This document shows, one piece after another, positions 37,343-62,265 of a stretch of 64,000 bases of DNA. The first letter of the stretch is position 1. Every line of letters begins with the position of its first letter. Source of the DNA: Schmidtea polychroa (Eukaryota); NCBI GenBank assembly GCA_044892525.1, contig CM097888.1:1302001-1366000 (forward strand), in the 5' to 3' direction. The position numbers were made by a program, and so were the translations under genes. Below the pieces are notes generated by a model. That model saw nothing but the letters and a program-made list of their open reading frames with translations, had not been told where the DNA came from and made no database searches.

Positions 37343-37990
37343 AATGATAACTATAAAAAAGCGCCAATCAAACATTCGTTTTAAGATATATTTCGACAGC
37401 TTTCCTGTCATTATGAGGTAGGATATATTAACTATAAAAATTATAGATTTTTTAACAAATTTATTAATTATATTAATTATATCAAAAATTTTAAATAAAA
37501 ATATTTTATTCTTTAAAAATTATAAAAATTATAATTCAAATAATAAAAAATTTTTTTAATTTAGCAATCAAACATAAAATTTTAAAATATTGAAATTTAA
37601 TTTAATAATTTAATAATTATTTAATTTAACAACAATCAATATATATAATATACAAAAAATTATTTAAAAACATTCAAAATACAAGTATTCACTGCATTCT
37701 GCACATTAATTTTCGAATTCAATGACTTTATCAATAACGCCTCACAAATTACACGTTCCCAATATTTTTTGGAATTTTTTAATGAAATGTTAAAATCAGA
37801 CATACCTATTTTACTCTTACAGCCCTTATTGTGCTCACTAATATGGGTCAAAGCCTTCGGTCTACAATGTTCTCGAGCTCTAATACAGAAATGACGGCAA
37901 GCCTCTCCAATGTATGTGGCATTACAACCATTACATGTAAACTGAAGATGATTCGGAAATGATTTGGTCGTTGTGGGCTTCAGTTTATAA
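37343..37990 (-). mobile_element. 5'-truncated Penelope-like retroelement (GIY-YIG endonuclease remnant and 3' end)
   Basis: QFTCNGCNATYIGEACRHFCIRAREHCRPK...WERVICEALLIKSLN. The 3' region carries a degenerate hammerhead motif (37385-37417). Confidence 0.85.
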
Positions 37991-38913: not shown

Positions 38914-41377
38914 AGTATCGATATCAAATTAACAACGAAATTACAGAAATATTTTATTATAACATTTAAACAAACTCCCTAATTCTAAGTTATGATAATT
39001 TAACTTTTTAATTTTATCATTTTTTTTTAAATTTAGTTATTCTATGAGATTTTTTTATTATTATTTTTAAATCTTCTTTTAAAAGATTCATATAATTATT
39101 GCTGCTTCTTGGAAAATTGAGCCAAAATATGAATCAACTCTCCAAGCCACTAAATTACATGAGAGTCACGCACGTGAAAACATTCAATTAATTTATAATT
39201 AATTTAATTACATTCTTACGGGATAAATGCATGGAGGGGGCCTTTCGAATGGCCCATGTATTATTTCTATGAGAACGTCTTCTATATCCGGTAATAATGA
39301 CTTTCTTGATCAATTATATTATTGTTACAATTAAAGGTTTTGTAAATGCGTTTAGAAGGCGCATTTATTAGGGACCCCTAACCCTTACTAAGAGTCTTGG
39401 TGTTGACGTATACCGTTATATTTCTCCTACAATCATCAACAAGATCTAGATACATTTGGAATGGCTTGATATTGAATAGCTAGATACTTGGTCATCGTAT
39501 TAAGTTTCAAAAATATATGAATATTTGTTCACCCCGTAATTGAGATAGATATATATTTGTTCTCTTGCCGATATATATATCTGACGTTCTTACTGTAAAC
39601 TTTTATCTGATCTCTGTCAACAATCGAGATTGATGTACTTTATGCACGTTGACGAATCTAGCGAGATTCAGAATTTCAATTAGATCTTATTGTTTATGAC
39701 TTTATTGACTAGGACTATTGCAAGATATTAGGTCAAATGTCAATTAGGATTCTTTTGTTGAAGAACTGGTATCAAAATGGTCTACTCTTGGTACTGATCT
39801 TCATTGGAATTGCGCCGGTCTTTTGGTTGTCTTTGGGTTAAGGTTATTTAAATTATGTAGGGGTTATGGCAGGAAATATTCACTCCAACTTTGCCGAATT
39901 TGAAAGAGAAATTGAATGTGTCGTACGAAGTGATGGGAAGAATGATGTCCATGAGAAGCATGGGAAATATTGTTGCGTTAATAGTGACAGGATATGTTTA
40001 TGATTCTTTTCCTGATTATGTCGGATCCATGATATCGGTCGCATGCTTCATTGGTGGCTTGTGTACCTTAATAATTCCTTGGTGCAAACAATTTTGGTTA
40101 GTTGTTATACTTCTCTTCATTCAATCTGGATTCCAAAATTCTATGAATAACGGTAAGTCACTTTTTTGGATTATGTTTTGTTTATATATATATTTTAATG
40201 GTTATGATAGGAGCTCAACTAATCATATTAAAGACATTCAAGGATAAGGCCGTGGGAAAAATGCAAATATATCATTTGGGATATGGAATAGGAGGGTTAT
40301 TATCAGGATTAATCTCTCAACCGTTTCTTTCAAAAGGTGTTTCTCGTAACGCCAAGATTACTAAGTATTGTCGAAAGGTTCTCAATGCAACTGACTTAGG
40401 GAAAATCGTTTCCTCAATTCTTGGAAGCAACAATAGCTCTAGTGGAATTGAAAAGAAAAGGTTATCGTTCGAATATATTTATGTTATAGCAGGAGTTGTT
40501 GGTATCCTCATAGCAATAACAAACTTTTACTACAGTTTACTGCCGATTCCGAATAAGGATAAATGTCAAATCAAGAAAAGAGAGCCTTGGATTAAAAGCA
40601 TTCATCCGAAGTATACGGCAAATGGTAAAATATGCTTAGGAACAACCATGACAATCTTGTTGTTTCTATACTACTTTTTCTACATTTTCGGTCTATTGAA
40701 CTTCCTACCTTACATCGTAGTATACGCCATTGACCCGTGCAAGAAATATTACATGAGCCAAAAGACCTCGGCAGTAGATAGATAGGGCACCGCTAGACCA
40801 GGACTCCGCTGGACCACATACCCCCCACCCCCCCACCCCCCACTCTAGGGGAAATTTTTAAAATTCTTTTCAAGGTCAAATTTTTTAATGTAAAGTTCAT
40901 TTTTTTTTTAAATTTGAAATTTGAGAGTTCCCGACAAGAGATATTATTATTTGAAAATAAAGGTCTTTGAAACACAGGGATTATTATTATATATACTCTG
41001 AGTTTATCCGACAAGATATTCTGTCCCCCTATGGGTATTGCTCACAAGGGTACTGGTCATATTCAACATGTCGCAAGGGTATTATTAANNNNNNNNNNNN
41101 NNNNNNNNNNNNNNNNNNNNNNNNNNNNNNNNNNNNNNNNNNNNNNNNNNNNNNNNNNNNNNNNNNNNNNNNNNNNNNNNNNNNNNNNNNNNNNNNNNNN
41201 NNNNNNNNNNNNNNNNNNNNNNNNNNNNNNNNNNNNNNNNNNNNNNNNNNNNNNNNNNNNNNNNNNNNNNNNNNNNNNNNNNNNNNNNNNNNNNNNNNNN
41301 NNNNNNNNNNNNNNNTCATTAGTTTTCATAAAAATGATAATAAATTAAGACATTAAAAAATTAAAAGATATATTAAA

Positions 41378-44300
41378 TCACAGATCAATTCGATAATAAT
41401 ACGTCATATCAATATCATTTTCATCATTGGCATCATTGAAATTTGGACTTCGACCTCCGAATAGTGGACGAATTTCTGAAATTACTTGATCAACATCTAA
41501 GGCATCTATTCCTAAAAAATGTCCAAACGCGAGACTTGAATTTTTCCCCACCCATAATCGTTTGTCATCGTTGTTTGACAATGCGATCTTGGTATTTTTA
41601 AACGTAAGAAGCTGGTGGTTGCGCGTCCCTATTCTAGTTTGTGGCACTGTATATACTACGCTGTTGTTGTAGCAGTCTAAATAAGACTGGTGCCCAATTT
41701 GAGTCCCTATCAATTTGACTCCCTTTGCTTTTAAATGATCTTTAGCCCCTAACAAACTATAGCACTTGGGTCTTAAGAAAACCCACTCCTTATACCCAAG
41801 ACCTTTACTTTCATCTTTAAACTTCCCTATCACAGAATCAAGGTTTCTCGAGTATAAGGGATGTGCTGGGTCATAGTTGCTAGTATCTAAAAGATTGTCA
41901 CGAATCATTGCCGGCAAAAGAGTGTCAAGCTTACAATGCTTTATCTCTAAGAAAAAGGAGTCAGTGTCACCGGCAACGATATTTATATCACAATTAAATT
42001 CATACCTGTACTTTGCCAATTCCACATATTGTAGTTGATACATTCTTAGTTTAGACAAATCTAACACTGTTTGACCAATGTAACTAGGTCTGTCTAAACA
42101 TATAGAATCTTTATCCAGATGAGCCGCAATCAGATCATCGGCAATTTTGATAGATTTTCTGAAAGTAGGTTTTGAAGCATATACAATCATCTTTTCAGCT
42201 GAATTGCATAGCCTCAAATTCATCCGTTTTTTAAGGTTTTCCACGGATTTCCCATACAGACTATTATTAAATAGCTTATATAAATCTCTGTGCAGCTCGC
42301 ATGTAGAATTGGCTCGTAAATTAGTGTTTTTGTCTATGTACGATTTAAAAATGGGTGCATGCTTAAATTTAATTGCCCTATGTACTTTTTTAATAATAGC
42401 CCCCAATTCTATATACAACTTCAGAAGTCGCCAATGAAGAACATGGTTCTTCTTCGGCCAATGCGTGAGCATCAGCTTCTCAACTTTAGAATTTGGCGGG
42501 TACATCTTTTCCGGAGCAATCGGAAAATCATTCAGAAACTCATGCAAACAATCAGGTATATCAATATCAACCTCTATAGTATAGCCATATGGAAGGATTT
42601 CAATATCATCATTCATACATTCATTCAAGACAGAATCAAGATCATCATACACCCATTCAAAGTCAGTATAAGGCAGATTTTGGCTCAAGGCCCAACCATA
42701 CAAGTTATTAATATCAATATACAAGAGTTCTGTGTCTTCAGAACTTACAACAAAATGTTTGTTAACAAATGTTAACCCACCCCGTATCCCTCCCTCATAG
42801 AAATTAAACATTTCCATGTCCTGCAAAAGTTCTATAGGTTCCGTTAATGTCATAAGCGCAGAGGCCCATGACATACCGGGAATGCCATAGAAATTAAGAG
42901 GCTCAAGACCATTATATGCAATGGCCTTTTCACGGAATTGTTGAAAATAGTCTGCGAGGAGAAACACGTCTAATTTAAGGTAGATTAACATGTAATCTAA
43001 CATGTTGTTGCAGTTTTGCTGAGTCCAAATAACTTGGGCTAATGCATACTCATCATTAGACACTGAATCCCAGATCGGTGGTAGTTCAAGAGTCGATTCC
43101 AGAACCTCAAGAGATGTGGCAAAGTCATAAGGAAAGATACCTTTGGCTCGAACAATTGCGCCATCAAAAACAGAAGAAGTTAAAGGCAGATCGGAAAGAG
43201 TCTTAACCGCTTTTGCTAAAGATGAATTAACAAACTGCATGCTGTCAATAAAACGAACAGGCAATTTGTTAATATACGCAATGAGGGAGATGAATTTTTC
43301 AGTAGTAGTCGGAATAATATTTAATTCCCAAGAAGGAAAATTATTCAAGCCATACTTCAAAATATGATGGAGATCATACCCCCTCAAATTATGAAACACA
43401 ACCGGTAACTGTCTCTGAATTCGCCGAGAAACATTACATTTCCTACAAGCAGCACCAAGATACTTGCCTGAGAAGTGGCAATGGTCCCTAACTCTATCTC
43501 TAATGAATTTTTTACACAGATAACAGGTTCTCGAATCTCTATATGCCCGTTCTTCAATGAAAGACAAAGTTTGCATGGGCTTTTTCCCATTAATTTCGTA
43601 ATATGGCAGGACAATTGTGACAGCAATTTCCTCCACCTTACGAAGGAAAGACAACGCACAATCATCACCAACAAACTCATAATAAAATCTAGTGTTATTA
43701 TAATTATTAATTAATAACATGCCTGCTGTTATTGGCAAGTGCTTTTGATGGTTTATTATATCCTCGGGTAAAATTGCCTCAAAATCGGCATATATCACGA
43801 ATGGCGGGGTGATTGTCTTCGCATAATTTTGAAAAATTAAATTTTTCTCTTTAGGTAGGGTGAATAAAGTAGTACCTATCTGGTTTTTTATGCATAAGGC
43901 GACATGAATATCAAATGCATTTTTATGTCTAAAACCATTGAGACAATGGGGACACCAGTTCACTCTAATCCAAAGGTTGCAGGAGCTACTGGGATGTGAG
44001 TTCATTAATTTTTGTAAGTTAAAAACTGCGGTATAATGGAAATTATCACCGTCTTCCAATAAAAGTAAGTATATGGGTTCACCACCTATAACTTTAGAGC
44101 GGTGAATAATATCTAAATGAGGATGATGGGGAATATAGTTACTATCATCGTTTTCTATAGGCTTAGCTGGGTTTTTCCTATAGGTTAATACATTAATTGA
44201 TAAATTTAATTCCTTATTTTTCCTTTCAAATTTAGGGATATCACATAATTTCATGGGGCAATCATCTATGGGGTCAAAATTTAACTCGTCACGATAATTT

Positions 44301-45091
44301 TCATAGGAACTAACACGATTTCTATGATGACGTATAACATTGCATTTTAACAGTGCTAAAATACTATATATAAAGCACATATCGTCGGTGTTTTTGACGT
44401 TTACTATTGCTTTTTTAGAATTTAAAGCTGATGGGGTGGGTATATAACTATGTCCAGCTAGCCTATTCATATGTGTATATTTAGTTAAGATAAAATCTAT
44501 CTCTTTGATTTTAACCACCCGCCATCCGCTACCCAAATATGTGAATTTTTCAATTTTATTATTTAATCTGGTGATTCCATTCATTAAAAAATTATCTGAA
44601 AAAACCTCTGCATTATTAGAGAAAAAATTATCTCTAATTTCCCCATCTTTTTCGAATTGGATTAAAACGGTGAATTGTATTTTAACTGTGCCCATACCTA
44701 CGATTTCGGTAATTAATTTATTTGTCATCTTATTTGTAATGAAAACTTGTACCAAGTTATCCTTTTCCATATTAAATCGTAAATTCTTTCTAGCCCCCTT
44801 AAAATCTATCTCAATTTCAGGTTCATCGTCAATATCGATCGAACCACCTATTTGATTATATATTGAATCACCAGTTGTATTAATTTTAACAATTTTAGAG
44901 GGAACACCAGACCCAAAACTAACAGCAGGCCGTTTATTATTATTTAGAATATTATTTATTTTAGTATTTAGATTCGTATTTAGATTAGTATTATTTACAT
45001 TATTATTTACATGTTTTGTATTATAATTTATAGGTTTTGTATTTAGGTGTTTTGTTGTATTATGTGTTGATTGTTGTATTTTAATAAACAA
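41378..45091 (-). CDS. polB: Protein-primed family B DNA polymerase (Polinton type) with an N-terminal OTU-like region and an endonuclease VII-like Zn insert
   Basis: ExoI YADFE, ExoII HNLRGYD, ExoIII YLKLDV, motif A DINNLYG, motif B KLFNNSLYGK, motif C GDTDS and KCY. Also GSGW...SYIPTP...NVKNTDDMCF...HY, CPHC..H..C and CYLC...RDHCHFSGKYLGAACRKCN. No stops over 1237 codons; the true start is uncertain (track start is TTG). Confidence 0.95.
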   Translation of the reverse strand: MFIKIQQSTHNTTKHLNTKPINYNTKHVNNNVNNTNLNTNLNTKINNILNNNKRPAVSFGSGVPSKIVKINTTGDSIYNQIGGSIDIDDEPEIEIDFKGARKNLRFNMEKDNLVQVFITNKMTNKLITEIVGMGTVKIQFTVLIQFEKDGEIRDNFFSNNAEVFSDNFLMNGITRLNNKIEKFTYLGSGWRVVKIKEIDFILTKYTHMNRLAGHSYIPTPSALNSKKAIVNVKNTDDMCFIYSILALLKCNVIRHHRNRVSSYENYRDELNFDPIDDCPMKLCDIPKFERKNKELNLSINVLTYRKNPAKPIENDDSNYIPHHPHLDIIHRSKVIGGEPIYLLLLEDGDNFHYTAVFNLQKLMNSHPSSSCNLWIRVNWCPHCLNGFRHKNAFDIHVALCIKNQIGTTLFTLPKEKNLIFQNYAKTITPPFVIYADFEAILPEDIINHQKHLPITAGMLLINNYNNTRFYYEFVGDDCALSFLRKVEEIAVTIVLPYYEINGKKPMQTLSFIEERAYRDSRTCYLCKKFIRDRVRDHCHFSGKYLGAACRKCNVSRRIQRQLPVVFHNLRGYDLHHILKYGLNNFPSWELNIIPTTTEKFISLIAYINKLPVRFIDSMQFVNSSLAKAVKTLSDLPLTSSVFDGAIVRAKGIFPYDFATSLEVLESTLELPPIWDSVSNDEYALAQVIWTQQNCNNMLDYMLIYLKLDVFLLADYFQQFREKAIAYNGLEPLNFYGIPGMSWASALMTLTEPIELLQDMEMFNFYEGGIRGGLTFVNKHFVVSSEDTELLYIDINNLYGWALSQNLPYTDFEWVYDDLDSVLNECMNDDIEILPYGYTIEVDIDIPDCLHEFLNDFPIAPEKMYPPNSKVEKLMLTHWPKKNHVLHWRLLKLYIELGAIIKKVHRAIKFKHAPIFKSYIDKNTNLRANSTCELHRDLYKLFNNSLYGKSVENLKKRMNLRLCNSAEKMIVYASKPTFRKSIKIADDLIAAHLDKDSICLDRPSYIGQTVLDLSKLRMYQLQYVELAKYRYEFNCDINIVAGDTDSFFLEIKHCKLDTLLPAMIRDNLLDTSNYDPAHPLYSRNLDSVIGKFKDESKGLGYKEWVFLRPKCYSLLGAKDHLKAKGVKLIGTQIGHQSYLDCYNNSVVYTVPQTRIGTRNHQLLTFKNTKIALSNNDDKRLWVGKNSSLAFGHFLGIDALDVDQVISEIRPLFGGRSPNFNDANDENDIDMTYYYRIDL

Positions 45092-45118
45092 TTTCTTTTT
45101 ATTTAAAGAGAACCGAAT

Positions 45119-45298
45119 TTAATGCGATTTGTGAATATTATAAAACTCTATATATTTAATGCGTTGGGAAGTCTCGCATATTGGACATATAAAGTAGTTG
45201 ATGCCATAGAATCTATGACCGTAGTATTTTTTCATATTTTTATGGCATATATTTGTATGATCATTTGATGACATGCAGTAGCGTGGGTATAATTTACC
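45119..45298 (-). CDS. Small Cys-containing ORF or exon upstream of polB
   Basis: A 51-aa ORF from ATG at 45274 (MSSNDHTNICHKNMKKYYGHRFYGINYFICPICETSQRIKYIEFYNIHKSH*), preceded in frame by an acceptor-like TTTATCAG. Confidence 0.3.
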   Translation of the reverse strand, partial: GKLYPRYCMSSNDHTNICHKNMKKYYGHRFYGINYFICPICETSQRIKYIEFYNIHKSH

Positions 45299-45639
45299 TG
45301 ATAAATATATATCAAATATATTAATAGATTTAAAAATTAATAGTTAATTGCATTTATATTTAATGTCTTTATTAACAATTCTTAAGCAGTTTTTATCGCA
45401 TAATAATTATAAAACGGAATAATAATCGGAATACATATATAATTTATTGTAATATTTTTATTATCAGAGGTATAAAATATGGGAGATATCATAAATATTA
45501 TTATCATTGTTATTATTATTATTATATCTAATATTACTATTTTTTTTTATTTTTTAATATTATTATTAGAGAGTAGTTGAGTGCTCAATGCAAACTATGC
45601 TTGACAATTAATATTTTCAAAGTATTATTTCTATTCAAT

Positions 45640-46541
45640 TATTAATTTCAACATCATTTTCAGGAACATATTCATATTTGTCCTAATTTTCAGATTTTTC
45701 ATAATTATCTTCAGAAAGATTTTCATAATTTTCAGGAACATTTCATAATTTTCAACATTTTCATTATAATTTCAGGAACGTCTTCATAATTTTCAGATTT
45801 TTCATAATTATTTTCATAAACATTTTCATAAGTTTCTGGAACGTTTCATTATTTTCAACATTTTCATAATAATTTCAGGAATATTTTCATCATTTTCAAC
45901 ATTTTCATAATTTTCAGCATTTTCATCATTTTCAGCATTTTCATAATTATTTCCGGACACATCTTCATAATTTATATGTGGTTATTAAACAAATTAATTA
46001 TCAAACACAATTTTAAATTAATTTTAAAAATAATAATAAAATATAACTAACATTTTGATTCTATATCGGAATCATCCTCAGATTCATCCCCATAATAAAC
46101 GGAGGCATGATTAATTTTCTCCTCAATAGACGTGAGGGCATATTCATCAGAAACATTATTAATATTTGGGGCATATTCAACATTCGAGGTATCATCACCT
46201 AAAGTTTTTGTAATTCATTAATTAAATGAAATAAATTTACCCGTTGATTCCATGATAATATTTCGGGTATTGTCCTCAATAACATTTTCACCGTCATTAA
46301 TAGGCTGATCAACTAAATAATTTTATTTTCAATTAAATTTTAAAAATAAATTTACTTAATAAAAGATCTTCTTTTTTGTCACTAATAATAATTGGCAGAT
46401 CTTGATTATAGTTGTCGGCCTCGGTGACTTCATACCATAAATTCTCTAAAATAATAAATAATAATAATAATAAAAATAAAATAATTTACCGTTTTCTCCA
46501 GCCAACATGGCGCGTAAAATATTATCTAATTCATCGTCCAT
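45640..46541 (-). CDS. Spliced acidic low-complexity gene inside the Polinton; 3' E/N-repeat part decaying
   Basis: Exons 46541-46490, 46445-46356, 46312-46241 and 46198-46052 are joined by phase-1 GTAAAT...AG introns of 44, 43 and 42 nt. They give a stop-free MDDELDNILRAMLAGENENLWYEVTEADNY...DESEDDSDIESK. The downstream NYENAENDEN repeats contain frameshifts and a TAG. Confidence 0.65.
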
Positions 46542-46896
46542 TTTTAATCGAAAATTTTTTAGTCGAAAATTTGTAAAATTTAAAAATAATTGTGACGAAT
46601 TTGAAAATTGTAACTGCTTATAAAGAAAATAAATATTTTCCGGTCCAATCAGAATCAAGGAAGGGATAGGACAAAATACATTACGTTGCGGTATTTTAAA
46701 ACTTAAATATATTTTAAAAACACATTTTGACACTAAAGTTGATTTATTTAATATTTTCATAATTTGCATCAATTTCATGATTATTTTCAATATTTTCACG
46801 ATTTTCAATATTTTCATGATTGTTTTCTTCAAAAATCGTAATATATTTACAAATTATTATTATTATTTTTTATATTATTATTATTATTATTATTAA

Positions 46897-46938
<42 letters not shown>

Positions 46939-46996
46939 TATTAATATTTAAAAAAAAATTAAAAATAATATCAATAATAAAAAAAATCAAGAAATC

Positions 46997-47360
46997 ATGT
47001 GTGTGTATTATACACAAAACAATATACATAGTTTTTAACCAATCCAATTTATAGAAAATTAAATTTTATCTATATATTATATTAATAAAATCCCAAGAAA
47101 ATTACGTTAAATGTATGAAAAATACAAATTTATTGTAAAAACATGTGTGTATTACACACAAAACAAGATACATAAATTTTAATCAAGCTATTTTATAGAA
47201 AATTAAATTTTATCTATATAATATATGAATAAAAATCCAAGAAAATTACGTTAACCACGCGGAAAAATACAAATTTATTGAAAAAGCATGTGTGTATTAC
47301 AGACAAAGAAACAAACTGAAATTGTAATTGTGCCATTTTGTAGAAAATTAAATTCTGCCT
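46997..47360. repeat. Three imperfect tandem copies of an approximately 145-bp unit within the element
   Basis: CATGTGTGT...TATTA recurs near 46997, 47142 and 47288, each followed by TAGAAAATTAAATT. Confidence 0.7.
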
Positions 47361-47649
47361 ATACATGGTTAGACTTAAATCTCGATCAGACCCATGAAAA
47401 GAGACATAAAAGAGAAAAAACAGTAGAGTAGATGGTATGGGGCCATCCATACCAGGGGCCCGCAAGAAAAAAAAAATAATAATAATAATATTTATATTTA
47501 TATTGCATTAGACTTTAAAATAAGCTATCGATCAATAAATTCGGATAATGGGAACGATAACTTTTGGGCAAACAAAAACCAGAGGTCCTCTGGACCACTA
47601 ATAATATTTTGAATAACAATAATAAAATAATAATATTTTTTAAAAATAA

Positions 47650-48160
47650 TAATATGACCTTGATGAGTCATCACGATGAGTCATATGACCTTGGGAATGA
47701 CCTTGGATGAGTCATGCAACCTTGAAATGGCCTTGATGAGTCATGGTCTTTGTTTAAATGACCTTGATGAGTCATATGTCTTTGTTTGAAATGGCCTTGA
47801 TGAGTCATGGTCTTTGTTTAAATGACCTTGATGAGTCATATGTCTTTGTTTAAAATTTGACCTTGAAAAAATAATATTTTGAAAAATAATAATATGACCT
47901 TGAAAATAATAATATTTTGAAAAATAATAATATGACCTTGAAAATAATAATATTTTGAAAAATAATAATATGACCTTGAAAATAATAATATTTTGAAAAA
48001 TAATAATATGACCTTGATGAGTCATCACGATGAGTCATATGACCTTGGGAATGACCTTGGGTGAGTCATGTGACCTTGAAATGACCTTGATGAGTCATGG
48101 TCTTTGTTTAAATGACCTTGATGAGTAATATGTCTTTGTTTAAAATTTGACCTTGAAAAA
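47650..48160. promoter_or_regulatory. Subterminal motif array: about 16 TGACCTTG and 11 TGAGTCA sites
   Basis: Counted by eye. It includes a direct duplication with 354-bp spacing (47652 and 48006). One inverted copy, TCAAGGTCA, lies near the left end (40870-40878). Confidence 0.6.
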
Positions 48161-50270
48161 AAATGTACTTTTAGACTTAGAATATTTTTTTAAAATTTTC
48201 CGGCCGGGGGGGAGGGGGTATGTGGTCCAGCGGAGTCCTGGTCTAGCGGTGCCCTATCTATCTACTCTCGGCGTATCTTCATTCGGCTGTCAACGCTTGT
48301 TTCCTAATTGGGAGAATCTTTGGGAGTATTTTTTCACAGTTCAATCCTACTGCAATGATTTTAACATTTAACTCTTTCAATGTTTTATTTGTGTTGGTTT
48401 TGTTATTTTTCAGTAACGATTACGCAATCGCCTTGTGGATCGGAGCATGTGGAATGAGATTCTGCAATTCTGTTGTGTATCCGACTGGAACCAGCTATAT
48501 AAATCGGTTTATAATCGTGTCCAGCACTTTGATATCTATAGCATTTCTTGGAGGGACAATGGGAGTGATATTCGGGCAATATACTGGGGGCTTTGTAATT
48601 GATAATTATCCTTCCTATTGTATTTTATACATTTGTTTGGGGTCCATGTGTATGTTACTTGGGATTACCATTTTGATTATTATCGTGGGATCGCATGCTG
48701 GGGTAAGGGTTTTCTCGGAAGATAAAACCGTCGAAAAGCGAGAAGAGTTCAATTTATCTTCAAAATGAATTTGATTATCATTAGTTATAAATTTATTTTG
48801 TATTTTAATTATTAATTAGCTATATTTTTTACTTTTTATCTCAATTTTACAGCTGAAAATCAGATTCTTTCAGTAGAATCTCGTCAAAGTGTTTTATTTT
48901 GAACATCGCAATTACGAGACTTGCATATTTATTATCATAAACGAGAAAATCGCTTATTTATTTCACAATGTTAAAACAAATTAGTTTCAGTAAATTTTTA
49001 AGAACTCTGATTATAATTATAAAATTTTAAATATTCAATGGGAAACTTTTTAAAAATTAAATAAAATATTAAAAATATTTACATAATTTTTAAAATATAA
49101 ATAAAAAATATTCTAAAATAAAATACCCTAAAATTTAAAAAAATCTTTTTTGTAAAACTATAATTTTTATTGCCATTTAATAAAAAAAAAATTAATTATA
49201 AACAATTTATTGCGACTTATTAAAATTTATTTTTGAATGGAAGTAATTAACATTAAAAATAGTGAAAAGAATAATAATTCTAACAAANNNNNNNNNNNNN
49301 NNNNNNNNNNNNNNNNNNNNNNNNNNNNNNNNNNNNNNNNNNNNNNNNNNNNNNNNNNNNNNNNNNNNNNNNNNNNNNNNNNNNNNNNNNNNNNNNNNNN
49401 NNNNNNNNNNNNNNNNNNNNNNNNNNNNNNNNNNNNNNNNNNNNNNNNNNNNNNNNNNNNNNNNNNNNNNNNNNNNTTAAAATATATAAAAATCTTAAAA
49501 TTAATAATAATAATATTAATAATAATATTAAAATATATAAAAATCTTGGAAATACTAAAATATTTTCCTATATTATTTGCTATTCCTTGATGTCAGAGAA
49601 AAATTGTTACTGAAATATTTCCCAACTATCGCAAGCGACATTAAAATTTTTTCAATCTTTCAAGTAAAATTTGGCTTCAATATTTTGAAAAAATAAAATT
49701 ATTACCAAACGATTAAATTTATTTTGTGTTTATACTAATTTTGGATTATTTTTAGTTAGAATGAGAAATTGTAAAAATCAAATGGAAGGAGGGATGACAT
49801 GTAAAATTGGGAAACGAGAATCAACATATTAAACAATGAAAATAAGTGCAAATTGAAAATGGCAATTGGATAAAAAATTATTAAAATAAAAAAATTATGA
49901 ATTTTTATCTCGACAGCTTGTCTAGGATAACTGTTGCACTAAATAAATGCAACAAACACTCAAAATAATTTTTTTAGGAAATATTGTATTTTACAACTTA
50001 TCGAGTGTTACATCTCAATGATTTGTAATGCAAATGGTCACACATATTGATTGAGCCACAGATGGATAACATTCAATCAATTGACTCGAACGCTGCTGCA
50101 AATATTTTCAGACATAATTTCATATTAAAAAATAAGGGCATTCCATGAAACCCAAATTTAGCTGGCGATCAAATTTAATGGAAATACAAAATAGGGATAA
50201 ATGTTGTAGGGATCAATGTTACGGTTTTAAAATTGAAATTATTTCCTTTGAGCGTATAATTATTTTAAAG

Positions 50271-53950: not shown

Positions 53951-55242
53951 GTCATAACGAGACGAATTATAAGTGAGGGTAAGCTAATTCTAACTACAAA
54001 ACTATAAACTATAATGATTATATATCAAATTGGGATGATGAAAATATAATTTATAAACAGTAGGCATAAGATATGTATATATGTATGTGTGTGTGTGTAT
54101 ATTTATCCATAGATTAATTCTAAATTATAAACTGAGGATGAGGGCATACGAATTGCAACCACAAAAGTATAGATTATAATTAGCTAGACATCCATTTTTT
54201 ATGATCGCTAGGATATGTAAATGATGTAAAATATAAACGTTATATGGATATATACCCTAAAGATGGATTGAAATCGTTGAGAGGTAAAGTACAAATAGCC
54301 CTATAGAATTATAAGGTATAGGAAGGGGGATCAGCAATTTGTACTTGATTCAAACCTATTTAAATTATGAACGGAGACTTAGCCCCTGAATCACCGTCAT
54401 CATCAGGATTACATTAATTCGTTGAATCCATAAATTAGTCACATAGACAATTTTTTTTAAATAAAATAGTTTCACTTACCTCATAAAATCAGAATTATAT
54501 ACCCAATCATGCAAGGTATAAGCATTTAAAAGATCATAATATTGGCATCATTAAATTATCCGAAAAGAAAGGGCCAAACAATCTGAAAATGTACCTAAAT
54601 AAGGTGATTCCACTGAATATGACAACCCAGTCTAAGTGAGGATGAGGTGGGAAACCAAGGTTCCAACAGCTCACCCAGCACTGACGGGGCTGGTTGATTC
54701 AGTATTTAATCAATACATTAAAAATTTAACAGAAAATTTAATTTAAAAAATTGAAAAACCAAATCGTAATGTTGACAACAATTATTACGGATGAACAAAT
54801 TATTTTGATTAAATTTAAATTATAGAAAATAAAACAGGATTATATTAAAATATTATAAAATAGAAATTAGAGGCTGAATTTTTCGATGATTAATACCAAC
54901 GGATAAAGTTACGTTTCTTGAGATTATAATTTTGGGTAGAATATTTGTGATAACGATTTAGTAGTAATGGAGATTTTTTAGGACAAAAATTTATAGACTA
55001 CCCACCAGATTAATATCCAAAATTTCCTTTTGCTGAGGTAGTTGTCTAATTAAATTTCTGGTATGCCTAATTATGAAAAGATTTCGAAATCGTATTCCCC
55101 TGCAATTACATTAGGACGATCCACGAGTGACCCACTCACCACCTGGCCACTTAGTTGAAAAGAGGGGCCGTAACGGATGAGGTTTTGAATCTACCAGAGA
55201 ATTGAGAACCTTACTGCCTTTAATTTGGGTTTATTTGATAGA

Positions 55243-55605
55243 ATGTCTCAATCAAGTGGATCCGACGAAGCAGAATACCGGCAGATGATAACACGGCTCC
55301 GGACCCGGTATATATGGTGCTACATTCACAGGTGGAGCCAGGGGCGGGACTTGGACTGCTCCAATCGGGTTATCCGGAATGGCCCAGAGCCCGATGCCCC
55401 GGCATGGGTGAAGGTGGAACCGGAGAATCACCGGTTGCAGGAGGCCCGAGATCAGGCGGCCTGGGATGTGGAAGCCGCTCAGACCCGGCTCAAGAAGATC
55501 GATCTACAAATCAGAGCCGAAAGAGAAGGGGTGTCCCTGGAAGAATTAGAAGAGGCCGAGGCACCTCCGAGGAAACGAGGGAGGCCCCGGAAGAACCCTG
55601 CTTAA
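55243..55605 (+). CDS. Hypothetical 120-aa protein with a C-terminal AT-hook
   Basis: GC-rich open frame from ATG at 55243, with a coiled-coil-like middle and a terminal PPRKRGRPRKNPA. Confidence 0.5.
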   Translation: MSQSSGSDEAEYRQMITRLRTRYIWCYIHRWSQGRDLDCSNRVIRNGPEPDAPAWVKVEPENHRLQEARDQAAWDVEAAQTRLKKIDLQIRAEREGVSLEELEEAEAPPRKRGRPRKNPA

Positions 55606-55901
55606 TCCGACGGCAGTGGTGGATTGAACAAACTAATTGATCAATCGGACATAATGTTATGGTGATTGTGTTGACTTCTTTCGTAGCTGACGTGACAATT
55701 TTGTAGAATTTGTATTTTATTAAAAATTATTAATATTATATTTAATCATGTGTATTCTTCATATAATAAATTACTTTTCTCTGTGTTTGTATTTGGGCCT
55801 TATAGTTTATGAGGTGTCGTCAGGATCGGGGAGTCCTTCCTCATCCTTCAGCTATAAATTTTACACCACCAAGCGAATCACCTTTACGCACATGACAGCG
55901 A

Positions 55902-56366
55902 GTGATGGAACTTTATTATTGTTTCTATTCAGTGTACCAGTTACTCGAAAACCTACGTAAGGACCGCGAACAGGCCCAGCAGCAAGCCGAAGACCTTCGA
56001 AGTCGGGTTGAGAAGCTCAAGATCAAGTGCCGAGAACTCGAAGGTACTTGGTTCAGTCCGGCTGAGATGAAGAAGCGGACAACCCACATCTCACAACTCC
56101 AGACCCAGGCGGAGCAAGATCAACTCGAGATCCGAGCGCTGAAGCTACAAGTACGCTCGCTCGAGAGTAAATTGAACGAGAGGTTCATCCGGGACACTCT
56201 TTGCGAGCAGATTCGCCCACTTCCCGTGGAGCTGACTCAGATATACCCACCAGCCCAGGCAAGCAAGCCGAAACGTAAACGGCTAGGGCGGAACACCCGA
56301 GAGAAATTGAAAAGGGCCTGGCTGGCCGAGCAGGAGAAATTGAAGGAGACTGAAGCCAATCCATGA
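55902..56366 (+). CDS. Hypothetical coiled-coil protein with a basic NLS-like C-terminus, probably spliced at the 5' end
   Basis: Heptad-like LLENLRKDREQAQQQAEDLRSRVEKLK and a basic KPKRKRLGR. A candidate 31-nt GT-AG intron at 55902-55932 joins it to the 55748-55960 frame. Confidence 0.45.
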   Translation: MMELYYCFYSVYQLLENLRKDREQAQQQAEDLRSRVEKLKIKCRELEGTWFSPAEMKKRTTHISQLQTQAEQDQLEIRALKLQVRSLESKLNERFIRDTLCEQIRPLPVELTQIYPPAQASKPKRKRLGRNTREKLKRAWLAEQEKLKETEANP

Positions 56367-57764
56367 TCCTGAGAGACGTTCGAGAGTGCGACCCTCCTGG
56401 GTAAACAAACCTTGTAATATAGTAGTGATTAAATAAATGATTCTTGTTGTCTAATGAGTATGAGATTGAACTTTGCTGTTGTCTAAAACAAGATGATTGG
56501 TAGAAAGGCGTTTGGGGAAACAATCTCGATGAGGGACCGAAACAAATCGGACACGTGCCTTCTATCGGCGTCCGTGAACCCATAGAGTGCTCGACAATTA
56601 CAGTGCTTGACGCGCTCACTTTTTGCGAGTACTCAACCCCTTGGTACAGTACCAATGTTGATTGCTCAACGGGTACCAAGAGGAAAATAAGGTTGTATCC
56701 TGGGTTACGCTGGTAACAGCATAAGAGCGTAATTAATTAACTATCAGTAACCCACCAAATGTAAAGAATTCCCAGTAATATAATATATAGCAGTACCTAG
56801 CAACTAATGCCATGCGTGTTTAGGTTCCCAAGTAGTTGCGACCATGAAACAAAATAATGACACATAACCCAATATTGCCATTAATCAAAGAAATAACCCA
56901 ATTTAAGTATTTCCAATAAATCTGTAACCGAAAGTTATAACTATTTGCTATAAATTGTTAAACATCAAACCTCCCGTCAGCGAAGTTAGCAAGTGTCATT
57001 TATGTCTGAATCTATTCCGCCCAGAGATCCAGTCATTCAACACTCAGCTCCGGTTATCCCACTTCCTTTTCTCTTTTCGCCACCTCTTCCGATCTTTTTC
57101 ATGTCCCAGCGCCATTTATCAATCTCAAAGCAGTGTCCACCTCTTTTACAGCACTAGCCAAAGTGTCGAAGAAGATATAGCTCGGTCGGTCACTTCTGTT
57201 TTCTTCCTAGACGTTGATTTGATCTTGTCCTCAGCACGACCCAGCTTAGGAATCACATTTGCTGACCAACGTAATTAGCGACAGTAATCAAAGGCCAATA
57301 AAGAACATAATAAGGCATTATAGTGAAAAATAGAAAGATGAGGGGTTATTTTCGATTTCTATTTAATTTCCTATCGGAAATTTTACTTCACAGTGAAGTC
57401 TTCACTGAACTTTAGAGTTTCATGAAACCTAATAAGTCAAACGCTGCTCTAGTATATTTTAAGTTTTTCCATTAAAACTTTCTTTAATTTTTTATTAAAT
57501 AAATTTTCTTCATCCTCTTTTCCATAGATGAATGTTTAATATTAAACAATTACCAAAATCATCTCATCAAGATATTTGAAATATATTTTCATTTTACTGA
57601 CATATTTTCTTGACTCTTGCTTTTCTTATATAACAATATCAGTAAAATGGTTTTCTCAATTAATATAATATTAATAAATTTTAACTATAAATAATAAATT
57701 TAGTAAAAGATTTGTTTAAATATAGATGATTTGTTGTGAACCATTTAAAATTAAATTTTAGTAA

Positions 57765-58201
<437 letters not shown>

Positions 58202-58610
58202 GTAAGTCGAAATTTGTAATTTAATTAATAATTAATAAATTTGCATTAACAATTTTTATTTGATTGAATAATTTGTAATTATATCATATTACAATATGAC
58301 GTAATGGAAGCTTTGAAGGGTTTCCAAGCTGTCAGCTGATGATGCTATAATAATGCGCATAAATTCCATTTGTGCAATGAAATCTCCAGCAAATCCCTTG
58401 ATAATTCATGTAGAGCAATCATTCATATCGTCACCACCATCATCACCATCATCCATATGCATAATTATGATATTTATATCGACATTTCCATTCAAATCAA
58501 TCAATGATTCATTCATGGAAATTATTATCATATTCATTCTGCCATTTCTATTTATTGGCAATCATTTTATCTTTGGGAATTCATTGATTGACATTTGGGC
58601 AAATATGCGC

Positions 58611-59865
58611 AATATTCCATGATGCTAGCAACCAAATACTTCAATAAATCCCCATAGCAACGGCACATTTACACCAAATATTGCATGATGCTAGCAACCA
58701 AATCCTTCAATAAATCTCCATAGCAACGGAACATTTACACCAAATATTGCATGATGCTAGCAACCAAATCATTCAATAAATCCCCATAGCAACGGGACAT
58801 TTACACCAAATATTGCATGATGCTAGCAACCAAATCCTTCAATAAATCCCCATAGCAACGGCACATTTACACCAAATATTGCATGATGCTAGCAACCAAA
58901 TACTTCAATAAATCCCCATAGCAACGGCACATTTACACCAAATATTGCATGATGCTAGCAACCAAATCCTTCAATAAATCTCCATAGCAACGGAACATTT
59001 ACACCAAATATTGCATGATGCTAGCAACCAAATCCTTCAATAAATCCCCATAGCAACGGCACATTTACACCAAATATTGCATGATGCTAGCAACCAAATA
59101 CTTCAATAAATCCCCATAGCAACGGCACATTTACACCAAATATTGCATGATGCTAGCAACCAAATCCTTCAATAAATCTCCATAGCAACGGCACATTTAC
59201 ACCAAATATTGCATGATGCTAGCAACCAAATCATTCAATAAATCCCCATAGCAACGGCACATTTACACCAAATATTGCATGATGCTAGCAACCAAATCCT
59301 TCAATAAATCCCCATAGCAACGGCACATTTACACCAAATATTGCATGATGCTAGCAACCAAATCATTCAATAAATCTCCATAGCAACGGCACATTTACAC
59401 CAAATATTGCATGATGCTAGCAACCAAATCATTCAATAAATCCCCATAACAACGGCACATTTACACCAAATATTGCATGATGCTAGCAACCAAATCCTTC
59501 AATAAATCTCCATAGCAACGGCACATTTACACCAAATATTGCATGATGCTAGCAACCAAATACTTCAATAAATCCCCATAGCAACGGCACATTTAGACCA
59601 AATATTGCATGATGCTAGCAACCAAATCCTTCAATAAATCTCCATAGCAACGGCACATTTACACCAAATATTGCATGATGCTAGCAACCAAATCATTCAA
59701 TAAATCTCCATAGCAACGGCACATTTACACCAAATACTGCATGATGCTAGCAACCAAATCCTTCAATAAATCTCCATAGCAACGGCACATTTACACCAAT
59801 ATTGCATGATGCTAGCAACCAAATCCTTCAATAAATCCCCATAGCAACGGCACATTTACACCAAT
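58611..59865 (+). repeat. 66-bp satellite, about 19 copies
   Basis: Unit CATGATGCTAGCAACCAAATCCTTCAATAAATCCCCATAGCAACGGCACATTTACACCAAATATTG, with stops in all six frames. Confidence 0.97.
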
Positions 59866-59866
59866 A

Positions 59867-60151
59867 GTAGTTATGAATCTGGGGACTGTGTCCCATTCAC
59901 CCGGCGTTGGCCTTAACTATCGTGTGACTGGCACAAACCCTCTTTCAAAACTAAACAATTTTAACCTTTTTACCCTATAAAAAATAAACTTTTTCAATCT
60001 TTTCAATTGTTGGAAATAAATGATAAAATAAATCCCCTCCAAACTTCAATTTTGTCATCATTTCATGAACTTCATCGGGTTAAAATGCTCAAAACAAACT
60101 GATTGATAATTAAGCCAGGGAAAGCTGGCTCAGTCCCAGATTCATAACTAC
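59867..60151. mobile_element. MITE-like element, about 285 bp
   Basis: The left end GTAGTTATGAATCTGGGGACTG matches the reverse complement of CAGTCCCAGATTCATAACTAC (60131-60151) apart from one indel. No TSD was seen. Confidence 0.65.
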
Positions 60152-60254
60152 CTTTTTTTTAAAAATTTTAAAATGTAAAAAGGCTTTTAACTAAACCTAT
60201 AAGCATTTGACCCAAACCCGTTTGACCGTATTTTGCAATTAATGGTTAAGCATG

Positions 60255-61060
60255 CGTGGCAATGATTTAATTATGAGATAGCGCCAATCAAATCGCACGT
60301 TCCCAATAATTATCGAAATTTTTTAATAACATTTTAAAACCAGGCCTATTTTAATCTTGTTGAGGTGTGGGCGAGTCTGATGAGTCAAATGGATTGAATA
60401 GCGTGAGCAAGGACGATGAGCCTAAATTTGTGTTAGTATTGCCGCACTCAGAAGGGTTTAGGGATTATAAAGTGAAGATAAGAAAGCAGTTAGGGAATGC
60501 AAACTATAGGATAGTGTCAACTTCATGGAAAGTACGCAATATGTTTATTAATCAGTCAAAAACTCGGGTTGAATTGTGTTCCGATCTCGTTTATCAGTTT
60601 ACATGTAATGGGTGTAATGCCACATACATTGGAGAGACTTCCCGTCACCTCTGTATGGGAGCTCGAGAACATTGTAGACCGAAGGCTTTGACCCATATTG
60701 GTGAGCACAATAAGGGCTGTAAGATTAAAATAGGAATGTCTGATTTTAAAATTTTATTAAAAAACTTCGATAATTATTGGGAACGCGTGATTTGTGAGGC
60801 GTTGTTGATAAAATCATTGAATCCGATAATTAATGTGCAGAATGCAGTGAATGCTTGTGTGTTGAGTGTTTTTAAATAAGCTTTTGTGTATTGTATGTAT
60901 TGATTGTTGTATTGAATTAAATAATTGATAAAAATTTCTTAAATTATTAAATTATTAAATTATTAAATTATTAATATCCCAGCTGACGATGACAGGAAAA
61001 CTGTCGTAATTAATCGTGAAAAGAATGTTTGATTGGCGTTGTCTTATATTTTGCAGTGTT
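60255..61060 (+). mobile_element. Penelope-like element fragment with an inverted 5' segment and a 3' hammerhead motif
   Basis: ORF 60367-60879 reads LVLPHSEG...VYQFTCNGCNATYIGETSRHL...EH...ERVICEALLI (GIY-YIG). 60288-60358 is an inverted copy of 60721-60794. Confidence 0.88.
60983..61015 (+). ncRNA. Minimal hammerhead ribozyme motif, mutated core
   Basis: CTGACGA-T-GACAG gaaaa CTGTC-GTAA-TTAA-TC, where GAAA has changed to GTAA. Confidence 0.55.
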
Positions 61061-61255
61061 TGTAATAAAACTTTTCAAAAACTTTCAGCATATAAATCTC
61101 ATTTAAAACCAAGACTTCATCTATGAACGCAGAAGGACTAAATGATTCAAATTCTAAACTTTGTCAAAAATGTGGAAACAGAAAAGGGATTATGTTATTA
61201 ATACTTGTGAGATTTGTGGAAAAAAAGTATAAAACTAAATTAATAATCAAAAAAA

Positions 61256-62265
61256 CGTGGCAATGATTTAATAATAGAGAAACGCCAACTCAATAAATTC
61301 AACATAAACGCGATATATTTCAATTGTACAACAATCTTCGTCAGGCCGCAATCTGGATAATCAGTAATAAGACATAAAATATGCAATATCTAAACAAATT
61401 AACTAATAATAATCATCTCCAAAATGTATCAAAAATTTTTAAAAAAAATTTCAAAACAAAAAAAAAATATTTTTAAAAAACCAAACCATATTTTACATAA
61501 CCCACATACATATTATTTTAAAATTAAATTTTAATTTAATAACATTTGACATTCAACATAAAATTAACAAATTTAAACAAATTACAAAGTTTACAAAACA
61601 CAAACATAATTATACCACAAACACGACTCCCAACCTTCATCCTTCAATTACTTAAACACATTCAAAATCTCCGTGGAACGGGCAACTTGATCATTTATTT
61701 TTGGATTTAAATATCTAATCAACAATGCCCCACAAGTTACTCGTTCCCAATAATTACTTAAACCTTTTGAAATAATTTTAAAATCAGAGATACCTATTTC
61801 TTTACTGACACATTTCCTACCATGATTACTAATATTAGTCAATCCTTTTGGTCGACAGTGTTCAAGAACTCGGGTGCAGAGATGACGGGCAGTCTCTCCA
61901 ATGTATGTGGCATTACACCCATTACATGAAAATTGATACACAAACCAATTGGCGTTGGACATTTACTAGTTAACATACTGCTAAGAAGTGGAAACAATCC
62001 TGAATTGATCCTTGTCTACATATTTGAGAATTTTATGTTTAAATTCTCTGAAACCCTCCGAATAAGGCAATACTAACACATATTTCGGCTCCATGCGATT
62101 GGATCGATTCTTGTCACTTTCCGAATTTAACATAGTACTTTCCTCAGGTTCAGACGTACGCATACCCACGTTATCAGATTTAAACATTAACTTATCCACA
62201 GTCACTTTTGTCAAGAAAAGATTTAGAGTAGCCATTTTTAAGTAACAACTCAACCAATACATCAA
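61256..62265 (-). mobile_element. 5'-truncated Penelope-like element (linker, GIY-YIG and 3' end)
   Basis: ORF pieces 61981-62265 (VLVLPYSEG) and 61648-61962 (VYQFSCNGCNATYIGETARHL...LEH). It shares the terminal motif CGTGGCAATGATTTAA with 60255. Confidence 0.88.
61312..61344 (-). ncRNA. Minimal hammerhead ribozyme motif with an intact core
   Basis: The minus strand reads CTGACGA-A-GATTG ttgta CAATT-GAAA-TATA-TC: conserved CUGANGA and GAAA boxes, stem II and an AUC cleavage triplet. Stem I is weak. Confidence 0.6.

What the first reader, a model, noticed from the sequence alone, without database searches (positions are those of the whole stretch)
40773..48266. A 7.5-kb minimal Polinton with an intact polymerase but no visible integrase, ATPase, protease or capsid genes
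Seen: AG...CT termini, a 53-bp perfect TIR, a 6-bp TSD and one large ORF with all pPolB catalytic motifs. The remaining space (about 0.6 kb left and 3.2 kb right) holds only small ORFs and repeats. Established: canonical Polintons are about 15-20 kb and encode a retroviral-like integrase that makes the 6-bp TSD, plus packaging ATPase, protease and capsid proteins. Inference: a satellite-like element that can replicate itself as a linear protein-primed molecule but borrows integration, and perhaps packaging, from a helper. Caveat: the 227-N gap is of uncertain true size.
Basis: partly seen in the sequence, partly recalled or inferred. Interest (0 to 1): 0.88.

Follow-up and report, generated by a model that had tools for sequence, protein, structure and literature searches.

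The report
Polymerase-only Polinton satellite lineage
This is a real, recently inserted 7.5-kb virus-like jumping element that carries only a DNA-copying enzyme gene; it belongs to a large family in this animal genome, mostly mirror-image doubles, that likely copies itself but would have to borrow its insertion enzyme from full-size relatives in the same genome.

Summary
In detail: 53-bp perfect TIR, 6-bp TSD (single-copy at an empty paralogous site), a phi29-like polymerase, and no integrase, ATPase, protease or capsid gene. Two corrections: the small ORFs on the right are four predicted 5' exons of the polymerase gene, and this copy has a private stop in exon 5. It is not a one-off deletion. 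Five independent insertions are polymerase-only with left and right ends, and twelve more carry the left end at both termini, mostly as long palindromes; 18 of 20 two-ended copies have perfect TSDs. None of 27 loci of this sublineage carries structural genes, yet shared polymerase variants are under strong purifying selection (pN/pS 0.09). Full-length Polintons exist in the genome: about 220 young copies with other ends, and a few decayed ones with these ends and a 97-98% identical integrase gene. An embedded inverted TIR (47427) likely drives fold-back into palindromes. Helper dependence, expression and free linear DNA are untested. The scan earlier found gene-less palindromic Polinton families elsewhere in this genome. 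Verdict: new variant of a known kind.

The parts
40767..40772 (+). left copy of 6-bp target-site duplication CTCGGC
   Evidence: single copy at the empty paralogous site
40773..40825 (+). left TIR, 53 bp, starts AGTAGA
   Evidence: 12 exact hits of its first 27 nt in G000
40826..41088 (+). left subterminal region; includes a ~110-bp repeat (40980-41088) that recurs internally and, inverted, near the right end of full-length relatives
   Evidence: (189 exact hits of a 31-nt motif)
41089..41315 (.). 227 N; an AT-rich simple repeat in sister copies
41378..45297 (-). predicted exon 5 of the protein-primed polymerase gene: zinc-finger-like start, low-complexity linker, then TP-like, vOTU-like, exonuclease with EndoVII-like insertion, and palm. 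The ATG ORF 44770-41378 (1130 aa) lies inside it
   Evidence: TP and vOTU labels rest on recalled motifs and the architecture in PMC11161782, not on a separate fold search
45119..45121 (-). in-frame stop at codon 59 of exon 5, private to this copy among those examined
   Evidence: 0 of 32 sister exon-5 starts share it
46052..46198 (-). predicted polymerase exon 4 (147 nt; 754-nt intron to exon 5)
46241..46312 (-). predicted polymerase exon 3 (72 nt)
46356..46445 (-). predicted polymerase exon 2 (90 nt)
46490..46541 (-). predicted polymerase exon 1 (52 nt from ATG)
46988..47426 (+). segment X: ~125-bp tandem repeats ending at a conserved junction with the embedded TIR; present mirrored on both sides of the central module in palindromic sisters
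47427..47466 (+). embedded TIR-like sequence (T'), inverted relative to the right TIR; 15 of 40 positions differ from the terminal TIRs
47427..48266 (+). module M (840 bp) between T' and the right TIR; homologous to the right end of full-length relatives; sits in either orientation at the centre of palindromic sisters
47655..48165 (.). right subterminal repeats: 12 TCAAGGTCA and 10 ATGA(C/G)TCAT
48214..48266 (-). right TIR, identical to the left over 53 bp
48267..48272 (+). right copy of the TSD
39933..40772 (+). host MFS transporter gene, part before the insertion
   Evidence: (MFS_1 E 1e-5, below Pfam cut-off)
48267..48768 (+). host MFS transporter gene, part after the insertion

Best explanation
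The element is one insertion of a polymerase-only Polinton lineage that likely replicates as free linear DNA with its own protein-primed polymerase and would be inserted by an integrase borrowed from full-length Polintons of the same genome. SHOWN: the anatomy, many independent insertions with 6-bp TSDs, no structural genes in the sublineage, purifying selection on the polymerase, and full-length relatives with integrase, ATPase, protease and capsid genes. INFERRED: (1) the spliced gene makes a TP-vOTU-polymerase that primes at these ends; it is kept because the abundant full-length family has a different origin sequence and a polymerase only 71% identical in DNA. (2) On a displaced single strand the 3' right TIR can pair with the left TIR, giving the normal panhandle and a 7.5-8 kb monomer. 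It can instead pair with the embedded T', 0.4-1.2 kb away; extension then copies back to the left end and gives a palindrome of about 16 kb with left ends at both termini and module M in the middle. (3) Central deletions and template switches give the other palindromes and the mosaic alleles. (4) An integrase acting in trans makes the TSD. This copy carries a private stop and is probably a dead-end insertion.
For: Independent insertions: 18 of 20 two-ended copies have perfect 6-bp TSDs; 17 of the 20 hold polymerase without structural genes, 5 as left-right monomers and 12 with two left ends. 31 inward-facing left-end pairs within 45 kb against 1 outward and 0 same-strand among the first 100 of 189 motif hits. 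0 of 27 loci with this sublineage's exon-5 start and at least 2.6 kb of upstream sequence carry PRO, MCP, mCP, INT or ATPase at 80% identity or more (L092/L093 are one duplicated insertion). Selection: among 22 polymerase-only copies, shared variants 354 synonymous to 128 non-synonymous (pN/pS 0.09), singletons 164 to 251 with 15 stops (0.39), Fisher p 9e-25. Shared variants absent from L096, L100 and L018 still give 0.09. Eight exonuclease and palm residues are invariant in 21 of 21 copies. Helper pool: 115 of 121 integrase matches and 97 of 98 capsid matches have no stop; 439 exact hits of the other family's TIR; 15 of 16 integrase loci sampled have a polymerase about 71% identical to this one nearby. 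Two full-length elements carry this family's ends (L049+50, TSD CATGTT; L096+97). Fold-back: 63 hits of the X-T' junction, 12 as inward pairs 422-774 bp apart; M occurs in both orientations; the right TIR is closest to T' in L082, L088 and L015 and to the left TIR in the window and L078, while L051 is ambiguous. The two arms of six palindromes differ by 1-20 substitutions in 3.0-3.4 kb.
Against: No evidence here of expression, free linear DNA, terminal protein or particles. The window's own gene has a nonsense codon. Polymerase alleles are mosaic and share segments with full-length copies, so part of the selection signal may have arisen in autonomous genomes that are now rare; only two near-complete full-length polymerases of this family were available as a control. 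The abundant family's TIR shares only the first 5 bases with this family's, and no call shows that its integrase uses these ends. Both full-length copies with these ends are broken. Of 20 single X-T' junctions sampled (of 39), 16 had no far TIR within 1.5 kb, so the neat arm-M-arm layout is a minority. Breakpoints of palindromes were not seen to be shared between insertions, so deletion after insertion is not excluded. The small exons show weak amino-acid constraint (pN/pS 0.4-0.7).
Confidence: 0.62

Rival explanations
1. Dead-end defective products: each polymerase-only copy was spun off once from an autonomous parent with the same ends during a replication burst and inserted by that parent's integrase. 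The selection signal is the parents' history, and there is no self-propagating satellite lineage.
For: Full-length elements with these ends exist. Alleles recombine with them. Palindrome breakpoints vary from copy to copy. Most copies have private stops or frameshifts.
Against: 0 of 27 loci of the sublineage have structural genes, while all five capsid-linked polymerases of this family that were seen (L049, L096, L100, L105, L108) carry the other exon-5 type, 74-81% identical. The X-T'-M layout is shared by dozens of insertions whose polymerases differ by dS up to about 0.36-0.44, which points to a long history in the gene-poor form.
Confidence: 0.25
2. The palindromes arose in the chromosome, from two copies inserted head to head or from host recombination and gene conversion, and the embedded TIR is an inert scar.
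For: Long inverted repeats are unstable and convert each other in chromosomes (recalled). In L014 the second arm is only 82% identical to this family's polymerase.
Against: One 6-bp direct TSD brackets each whole palindrome and the flanks are not mirrored. 31 inward pairs against 1 outward. The same junction flanks M on both sides at 12 loci. This rival does not explain the monomers.
Confidence: 0.08
3. A single full-length Polinton deleted after insertion, or an assembly artefact (fold-back chimera, collapsed gap).
For: An N run lies inside the element. One right-end palindrome (L039) has mirrored flanks and may be an artefact or part of a larger palindrome.
Against: Four further polymerase-only left-right insertions with different TSDs. 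The empty site is seen. Arms differ by substitutions and by one-sided insertions.
Confidence: 0.03

Closest known systems
Polintons/Mavericks, autonomous (PMC8097293, PMC6431247, PMC11161782; passages read)
   Same: TIRs, 6-bp TSD, AGT-type end, protein-primed polymerase with N-terminal TP-vOTU-like region; direct homology to full-length Polintons in the same genome
   Different: No integrase, ATPase, protease or capsid genes; 7.5 kb against about 15-17 kb; predicted introns in the polymerase gene (vertebrate elements are reported intronless in PMC8097293); embedded TIR
Non-autonomous or partial Polintons (Kapitonov and Jurka 2006, recalled, paper not held; polymerase plus TIR without integrase at 10 loci in C. 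elegans strains, 10.1101/2024.01.15.575659, passages read)
   Same: Polinton ends without integrase
   Different: Here the polymerase-only form is the majority form of a family, has many TSD-flanked insertions, shows selection on the polymerase and is mostly palindromic; the passages read treat the nematode loci as remnants
Snap-back or copy-back defective genomes (AAV snapback genomes, PMC8235507, search listing and start of abstract only; kalilo plasmid hairpin derivative, title seen in the reference list of PMC11161782; adenovirus embedded-ITR duplications, recalled)
   Same: One end duplicated as a long inverted arm, variable breakpoints, dependence on a full genome
   Different: These are integrated and inherited, keep a whole replication gene under selection, and have an internal TIR as a candidate fold-back point
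Bacteriophage satellites of the P4/PICI kind (recalled)
   Same: Own replication protein and origin, no capsid genes, co-resident helper
   Different: Eukaryotic, protein-primed, lacks its own integrase, derived from the helper's own family; helper dependence and interference untested
pPolB with an HNH/EndoVII insertion (nematode and oomycete pPolB2, 10.1101/2023.08.22.554363, passages read)
   Same: Nuclease-like domain inserted within the exonuclease region (PF02945, residues 412-447)
   Different: Hit is below the Pfam cut-off; relationship to those clades was not tested by phylogeny

Membership tests
Polinton/Maverick (autonomous) | Terminal inverted repeats | tested here: met
   53/53 identical
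Polinton/Maverick (autonomous) | 6-bp target-site duplication | tested here: met
   18 of 20 two-ended copies perfect
Polinton/Maverick (autonomous) | (AGT)2 or (AG)3 end motif (vertebrate elements, PMC8097293) | tested here: inconclusive
   ends read AGTAGA; the abundant family in the genome reads AGTAGT
Polinton/Maverick (autonomous) | Protein-primed family B polymerase | tested here: met
   private stop upstream of the catalytic ORF
Polinton/Maverick (autonomous) | Retroviral-like integrase | tested here: not met
Polinton/Maverick (autonomous) | Packaging ATPase, protease, major and minor capsid proteins | tested here: not met
   present only in full-length relatives
Polinton/Maverick (autonomous) | Length about 15-20 kb | tested here: not met
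   7494 bp
Non-autonomous Polinton derivative | Same ends as, and homology to, a full-length Polinton in the genome | tested here: met
   L049+50 and L096+97: TIR 94-98% identical, polymerase 87-91% in DNA
Non-autonomous Polinton derivative | Several independent insertions without the integrase gene | tested here: met
   17 of 20 two-ended copies
Satellite with its own replicon (P4/PICI-like way of life) | Own replication gene kept functional | tested here: met
   pN/pS 0.09 on shared variants; confounded by recombination with full-length copies
Satellite with its own replicon (P4/PICI-like way of life) | Lineage persists without structural genes | tested here: inconclusive
   0 of 27 loci; a sample, not a census
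Satellite with its own replicon (P4/PICI-like way of life) | Depends on a helper for integration or packaging | not testable with these tools
   inferred from TSDs and missing genes
Satellite with its own replicon (P4/PICI-like way of life) | Packaged in helper capsids or interferes with the helper | not testable with these tools
   only a size hint: three near-complete palindromes are 15.8-16.6 kb, and 16 of 44 helper-family pairs are 15.9-16.4 kb
Snap-back/copy-back defective genome | Same terminus at both ends with long inverted arms | tested here: not met
   not met for the window copy, which has distinct left and right ends; met for most sister copies
pPolB2 (HNH-bearing clade of nematodes and oomycetes) | Phylogenetic placement in that clade | not tested
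   only a sub-threshold PF02945 hit

The most novel reading that the evidence does not exclude
A self-replicating satellite of an animal polintovirus: a lineage that keeps only its own origin-specific protein-primed polymerase, switches between a 7.5-kb monomer and a helper-sized 16-kb palindrome through an embedded TIR, and uses the integrase and capsid of a co-resident Polinton family with different ends. It would be a eukaryotic counterpart of phage satellites, and the genome would hold a fossil record of Polinton strand-displacement intermediates.
Probability: 0.3. Interest if true: 0.85.

Novelty: new variant of a known kind. Interest (0 to 1): 0.6.

Why it matters
The searches run here turned up no direct demonstration of how animal Polintons replicate. 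Palindromes with matching arms, an invertible centre and TIRs that track either partner are what a single-strand panhandle intermediate predicts, and the right-end/T' junction gives a specific molecule to look for. The two genome screens whose methods I read (PMC8097293; 10.1101/2024.01.15.575659) call Polintons by integrase and polymerase lying together, so polymerase-only lineages would be under-counted. If helper dependence holds, Polintons have parasites with their own replicon. The insertion also interrupts one of two near-identical host transporter genes.

Tried and rejected
Gap hides genes: rejected. Single deleted copy: rejected. Small ORFs as separate genes: rejected in favour of 5' exons. 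A bipartite system of polymerase-only and capsid-only segments: not supported, since 15 of 16 integrase loci have their own polymerase; L090 is a lone capsid-module copy with this family's left end. Pox_A32 search mostly found another Polinton family. PDB sequence search, viral contigs, Rfam and earlier findings by sequence gave nothing. Among 80 metagenome loci with distant polymerases (29-53%), none showed a palindromic or TIR-bounded polymerase-only layout; most are short, so generality is open. Sequencing runs: no RNA holder listed; expression and splicing were not tested on reads. Literature searches for a polymerase-only or palindromic Polinton family showed no such title or abstract start; subscription papers and Repbase reports are not covered, Kapitonov and Jurka 2006 was not held, and no supplements were read. 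The search for adenovirus embedded-ITR work gave nothing usable. The host species was not established; 'planarian' and 'Schmidtea' in two searches were guesses.
Full report
1. THE OBSERVATION. The element spans 40773-48266. Its first and last 53 bases are perfect inverted repeats and CTCGGC flanks both ends. It interrupts an MFS transporter exon. A paralog 74 kb away has the hexamer once, an open 373-aa frame and flanks 399/400 and 396/400 identical, so the duplication is real and the insertion recent. The minus-strand ORF 44770-41378 has all exonuclease and polymerase motifs. Its model (pLDDT 88) matches phi29 polymerase best in PDB and adintovirus, MELD and bidnavirus-type polymerases among viral models. 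N-terminal motifs fit the TP-vOTU layout described in PMC11161782 (passages read); these two labels are by recalled motif. A weak EndoVII hit lies at residues 412-447. Twelve ORFs of a full-length relative find nothing in the element. The N run corresponds to 247-648 bases of AT-rich simple repeat in 12 of 14 sister readings.

2. TWO CORRECTIONS. The small ORFs to the right are four exons (46541-46490, 46445-46356, 46312-46241, 46198-46052) with GT-AG introns of 44, 43, 42 and 754 bases, all phase 1 and in frame with the long exon. A similar set of short AT-rich introns is visible by eye in a full-length relative and in the other family. 84 of 85 sister copies of these four exons keep the frame, but amino-acid constraint is weak, and no RNA was examined. 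The window copy has a stop at 45119-45121 in exon 5 that none of 32 sister copies shares. The catalytic ORF downstream is whole, but this insertion may be dead.

3. THE FAMILY. The window lies in G000:C4. The polymerase search scored 41 places, 40 of them at 91-93% identity and many as divergent pairs. A 31-nt left-end motif has 189 exact hits. Among the first 100 listed, 31 pairs face inward within 45 kb, one outward and none lie in tandem. A right-end motif has 7 hits. Of 20 copies read at both ends, 18 have a perfect 6-bp TSD, one has one mismatch and one lies in simple repeats. Five are left-polymerase-right monomers: the window, L082, L209+210, L046+17 and L018, the last with another exon-5 type and no T'. 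Twelve have left ends at both termini around polymerase DNA. One has no polymerase, one is full-length, and one encloses genes of a different Polinton family. Host flanks are not mirrored, which argues against fold-back artefacts; L039 is an exception and was set aside. None of 27 loci with the window's exon-5 type and enough upstream sequence has structural genes.

4. SELECTION. Pairwise dN/dS against the window is 0.12-0.20 for all but the closest copies, which give 0.26-0.34. Among 22 polymerase-only copies, one arm each, shared variants give pN/pS 0.09 and singletons 0.39 with 15 stops. Removing variants seen in L096, L100 and L018 leaves 0.09. Sliding identity shows mosaic alleles, with segments shared with full-length copies. 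The polymerase was therefore functional while these lineages diverged, but whether it worked inside polymerase-only genomes is inferred from linkage, not shown.

5. HELPERS. L049+50 (16.3 kb, TSD CATGTT) and L096+97 (14.9 kb, AT-repeat flanks) carry this family's ends together with protease, capsid, minor capsid, integrase, ATPase and TBP-like genes. The capsid resembles DJR-like clusters (a lead: score 0.97, recognition below the tool's mark). Integrase and ATPase have Pfam hits (rve below its cut-off); the protease and minor capsid labels are recalled motifs. Both copies are broken. A second family dominates: 439 exact TIR hits, median pair length 16.3 kb among 44 listed pairs, polymerases nearly identical to one another and about 71% identical to the window's, and mostly stop-free integrase and capsid matches. 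Integrase DNA next to its capsid type is 97-98% identical to that in L049+50 (L101), but its TIR shares only AGTAG with the window's. Arm divergence in the palindromes and branch lengths in this family overlap, so the two were inserting at about the same time.

6. MECHANISM. At 47427 a TIR-like sequence (T') points toward the right end. In L078, L088, L051+52 and L015+45 the module between T' and the right TIR is flanked on both sides by the same junction and lies in either orientation. Genome-wide, 24 of 63 junction hits form 12 such pairs; the window's own variant does not match that pattern. Of 20 unpaired hits sampled, one was a longer palindrome centre, two ended in non-element DNA (one TSD-verified), one folded back directly at T', and 16 (that one included) or so showed no far TIR: in total 17 had none within 1.5 kb. 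In strand-displacement replication (established for phi29 and adenovirus, recalled) the displaced strand's 3' TIR pairs with its partner. Pairing with T' would prime copying back to the left end and give the palindrome. The right TIR resembles T' in L082, L088 and L015 and the left TIR in the window and L078, as expected if both pairings occur and leave conversion tracks; six cases are few. Origin and primer specificity is documented for phi29 versus GA-1 (PMC2175359, abstract read), which gives a reason for a dependent element to keep its own polymerase. Integration in trans follows from TSDs on copies without integrase; a PLV integrated without a detectable integrase is noted in PMC11296320 (passage read).

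7. COMPARISON AND NOVELTY. It is not an autonomous Polinton, since the integrase, ATPase, protease and capsid tests failed. It is a non-autonomous derivative that works like a snap-back defective genome and perhaps like a phage satellite. Defective Mavericks are common (96% in vertebrates, PMC8097293) and polymerase-plus-TIR loci are noted in C. elegans. The searches listed under Tried and rejected showed no report of a selected, mostly palindromic polymerase-only lineage; they do not cover Repbase or subscription papers. Earlier notes of this scan describe gene-less palindromic Polinton families and the mini-TBP in this genome and similar offshoots in two other genomes. I reached the palindrome reading before that look-up and do not count those notes as support.

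8. VERDICT. Real feature, new variant of a known kind. Self-propagating helper-dependent lineage 0.62; dead-end spin-offs 0.25. Interest 0.6.

Noticed in passing
window 10272-34400: Tandem array of about 31 copies of a 718-bp unit (some 938-1045), GC 46-48% in an AT-rich background, many copies 100% identical; no Rfam hit.
   Followed up: no
L050:4895-5332 and L040:5288-5749: Full-length relatives encode a short TBP-like protein (PF00352, E 2e-14) head to head with the ATPase; already noted by the scan.
   Followed up: partly
L090+L098 (G000:C1:147986800-148003319): This family's left end and segment X followed by a capsid-integrase-ATPase module with no polymerase: the reciprocal of the window element.
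   Followed up: partly
L053+54, L076, L086, L087, L089, L032, L022: Ends or arms of this family lie next to genes of other Polinton types (polymerases 66-69% identical, a different ATPase and protease); either nested insertion or recombination between co-replicating genomes.
   Followed up: no
window 47655-48165 and 40870: Right-end repeats hold 12 TCAAGGTCA and 10 ATGA(C/G)TCAT, which resemble nuclear-receptor (Ftz-F1/NR5A) and AP-1 sites (recalled); possible host-factor sites at the origin.
   Followed up: no
window 40980-41088; L049+50, L096+97, L040, L102: A ~110-bp repeat recurs at the left end, internally, and inverted near the right end of full-length copies; exchange there would explain why L049+50 has a left-type end on both sides.
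   Followed up: partly
TIRs of L028+29, L030+31, L081, L063, L066, L069, L074: A 15-16-nt unit inside the TIR occurs in one, two or three copies in both families, sometimes differing between the two ends of one element; suggests slippage near the origin.
   Followed up: no
L039:1174-4098: A 2.9-kb palindrome of two right ends whose flanks are mirrored too; artefact or centre of a larger palindrome.
   Followed up: no
G000:C4:1244642-1276567 and window 39933-48768: A cluster of four MFS genes; the interrupted one has a 99% identical intact twin 74 kb away, a very recent duplication or two haplotypes side by side.
   Followed up: partly
window 58000-62000, 37629-37945, 54500-57000: GIY-YIG (Penelope-like, recalled) fragments on both strands, a 317-bp inverted repeat with 37629-37945, and ORFs at 54.5-57 kb that look by eye like ORFs flanking L021 and L039.
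   Followed up: no
L055-L058, L053+54, L013, L103, L106, L107, L109: Further Polinton types with distinct polymerases or ATPase/capsid modules coexist in this genome.
   Followed up: no
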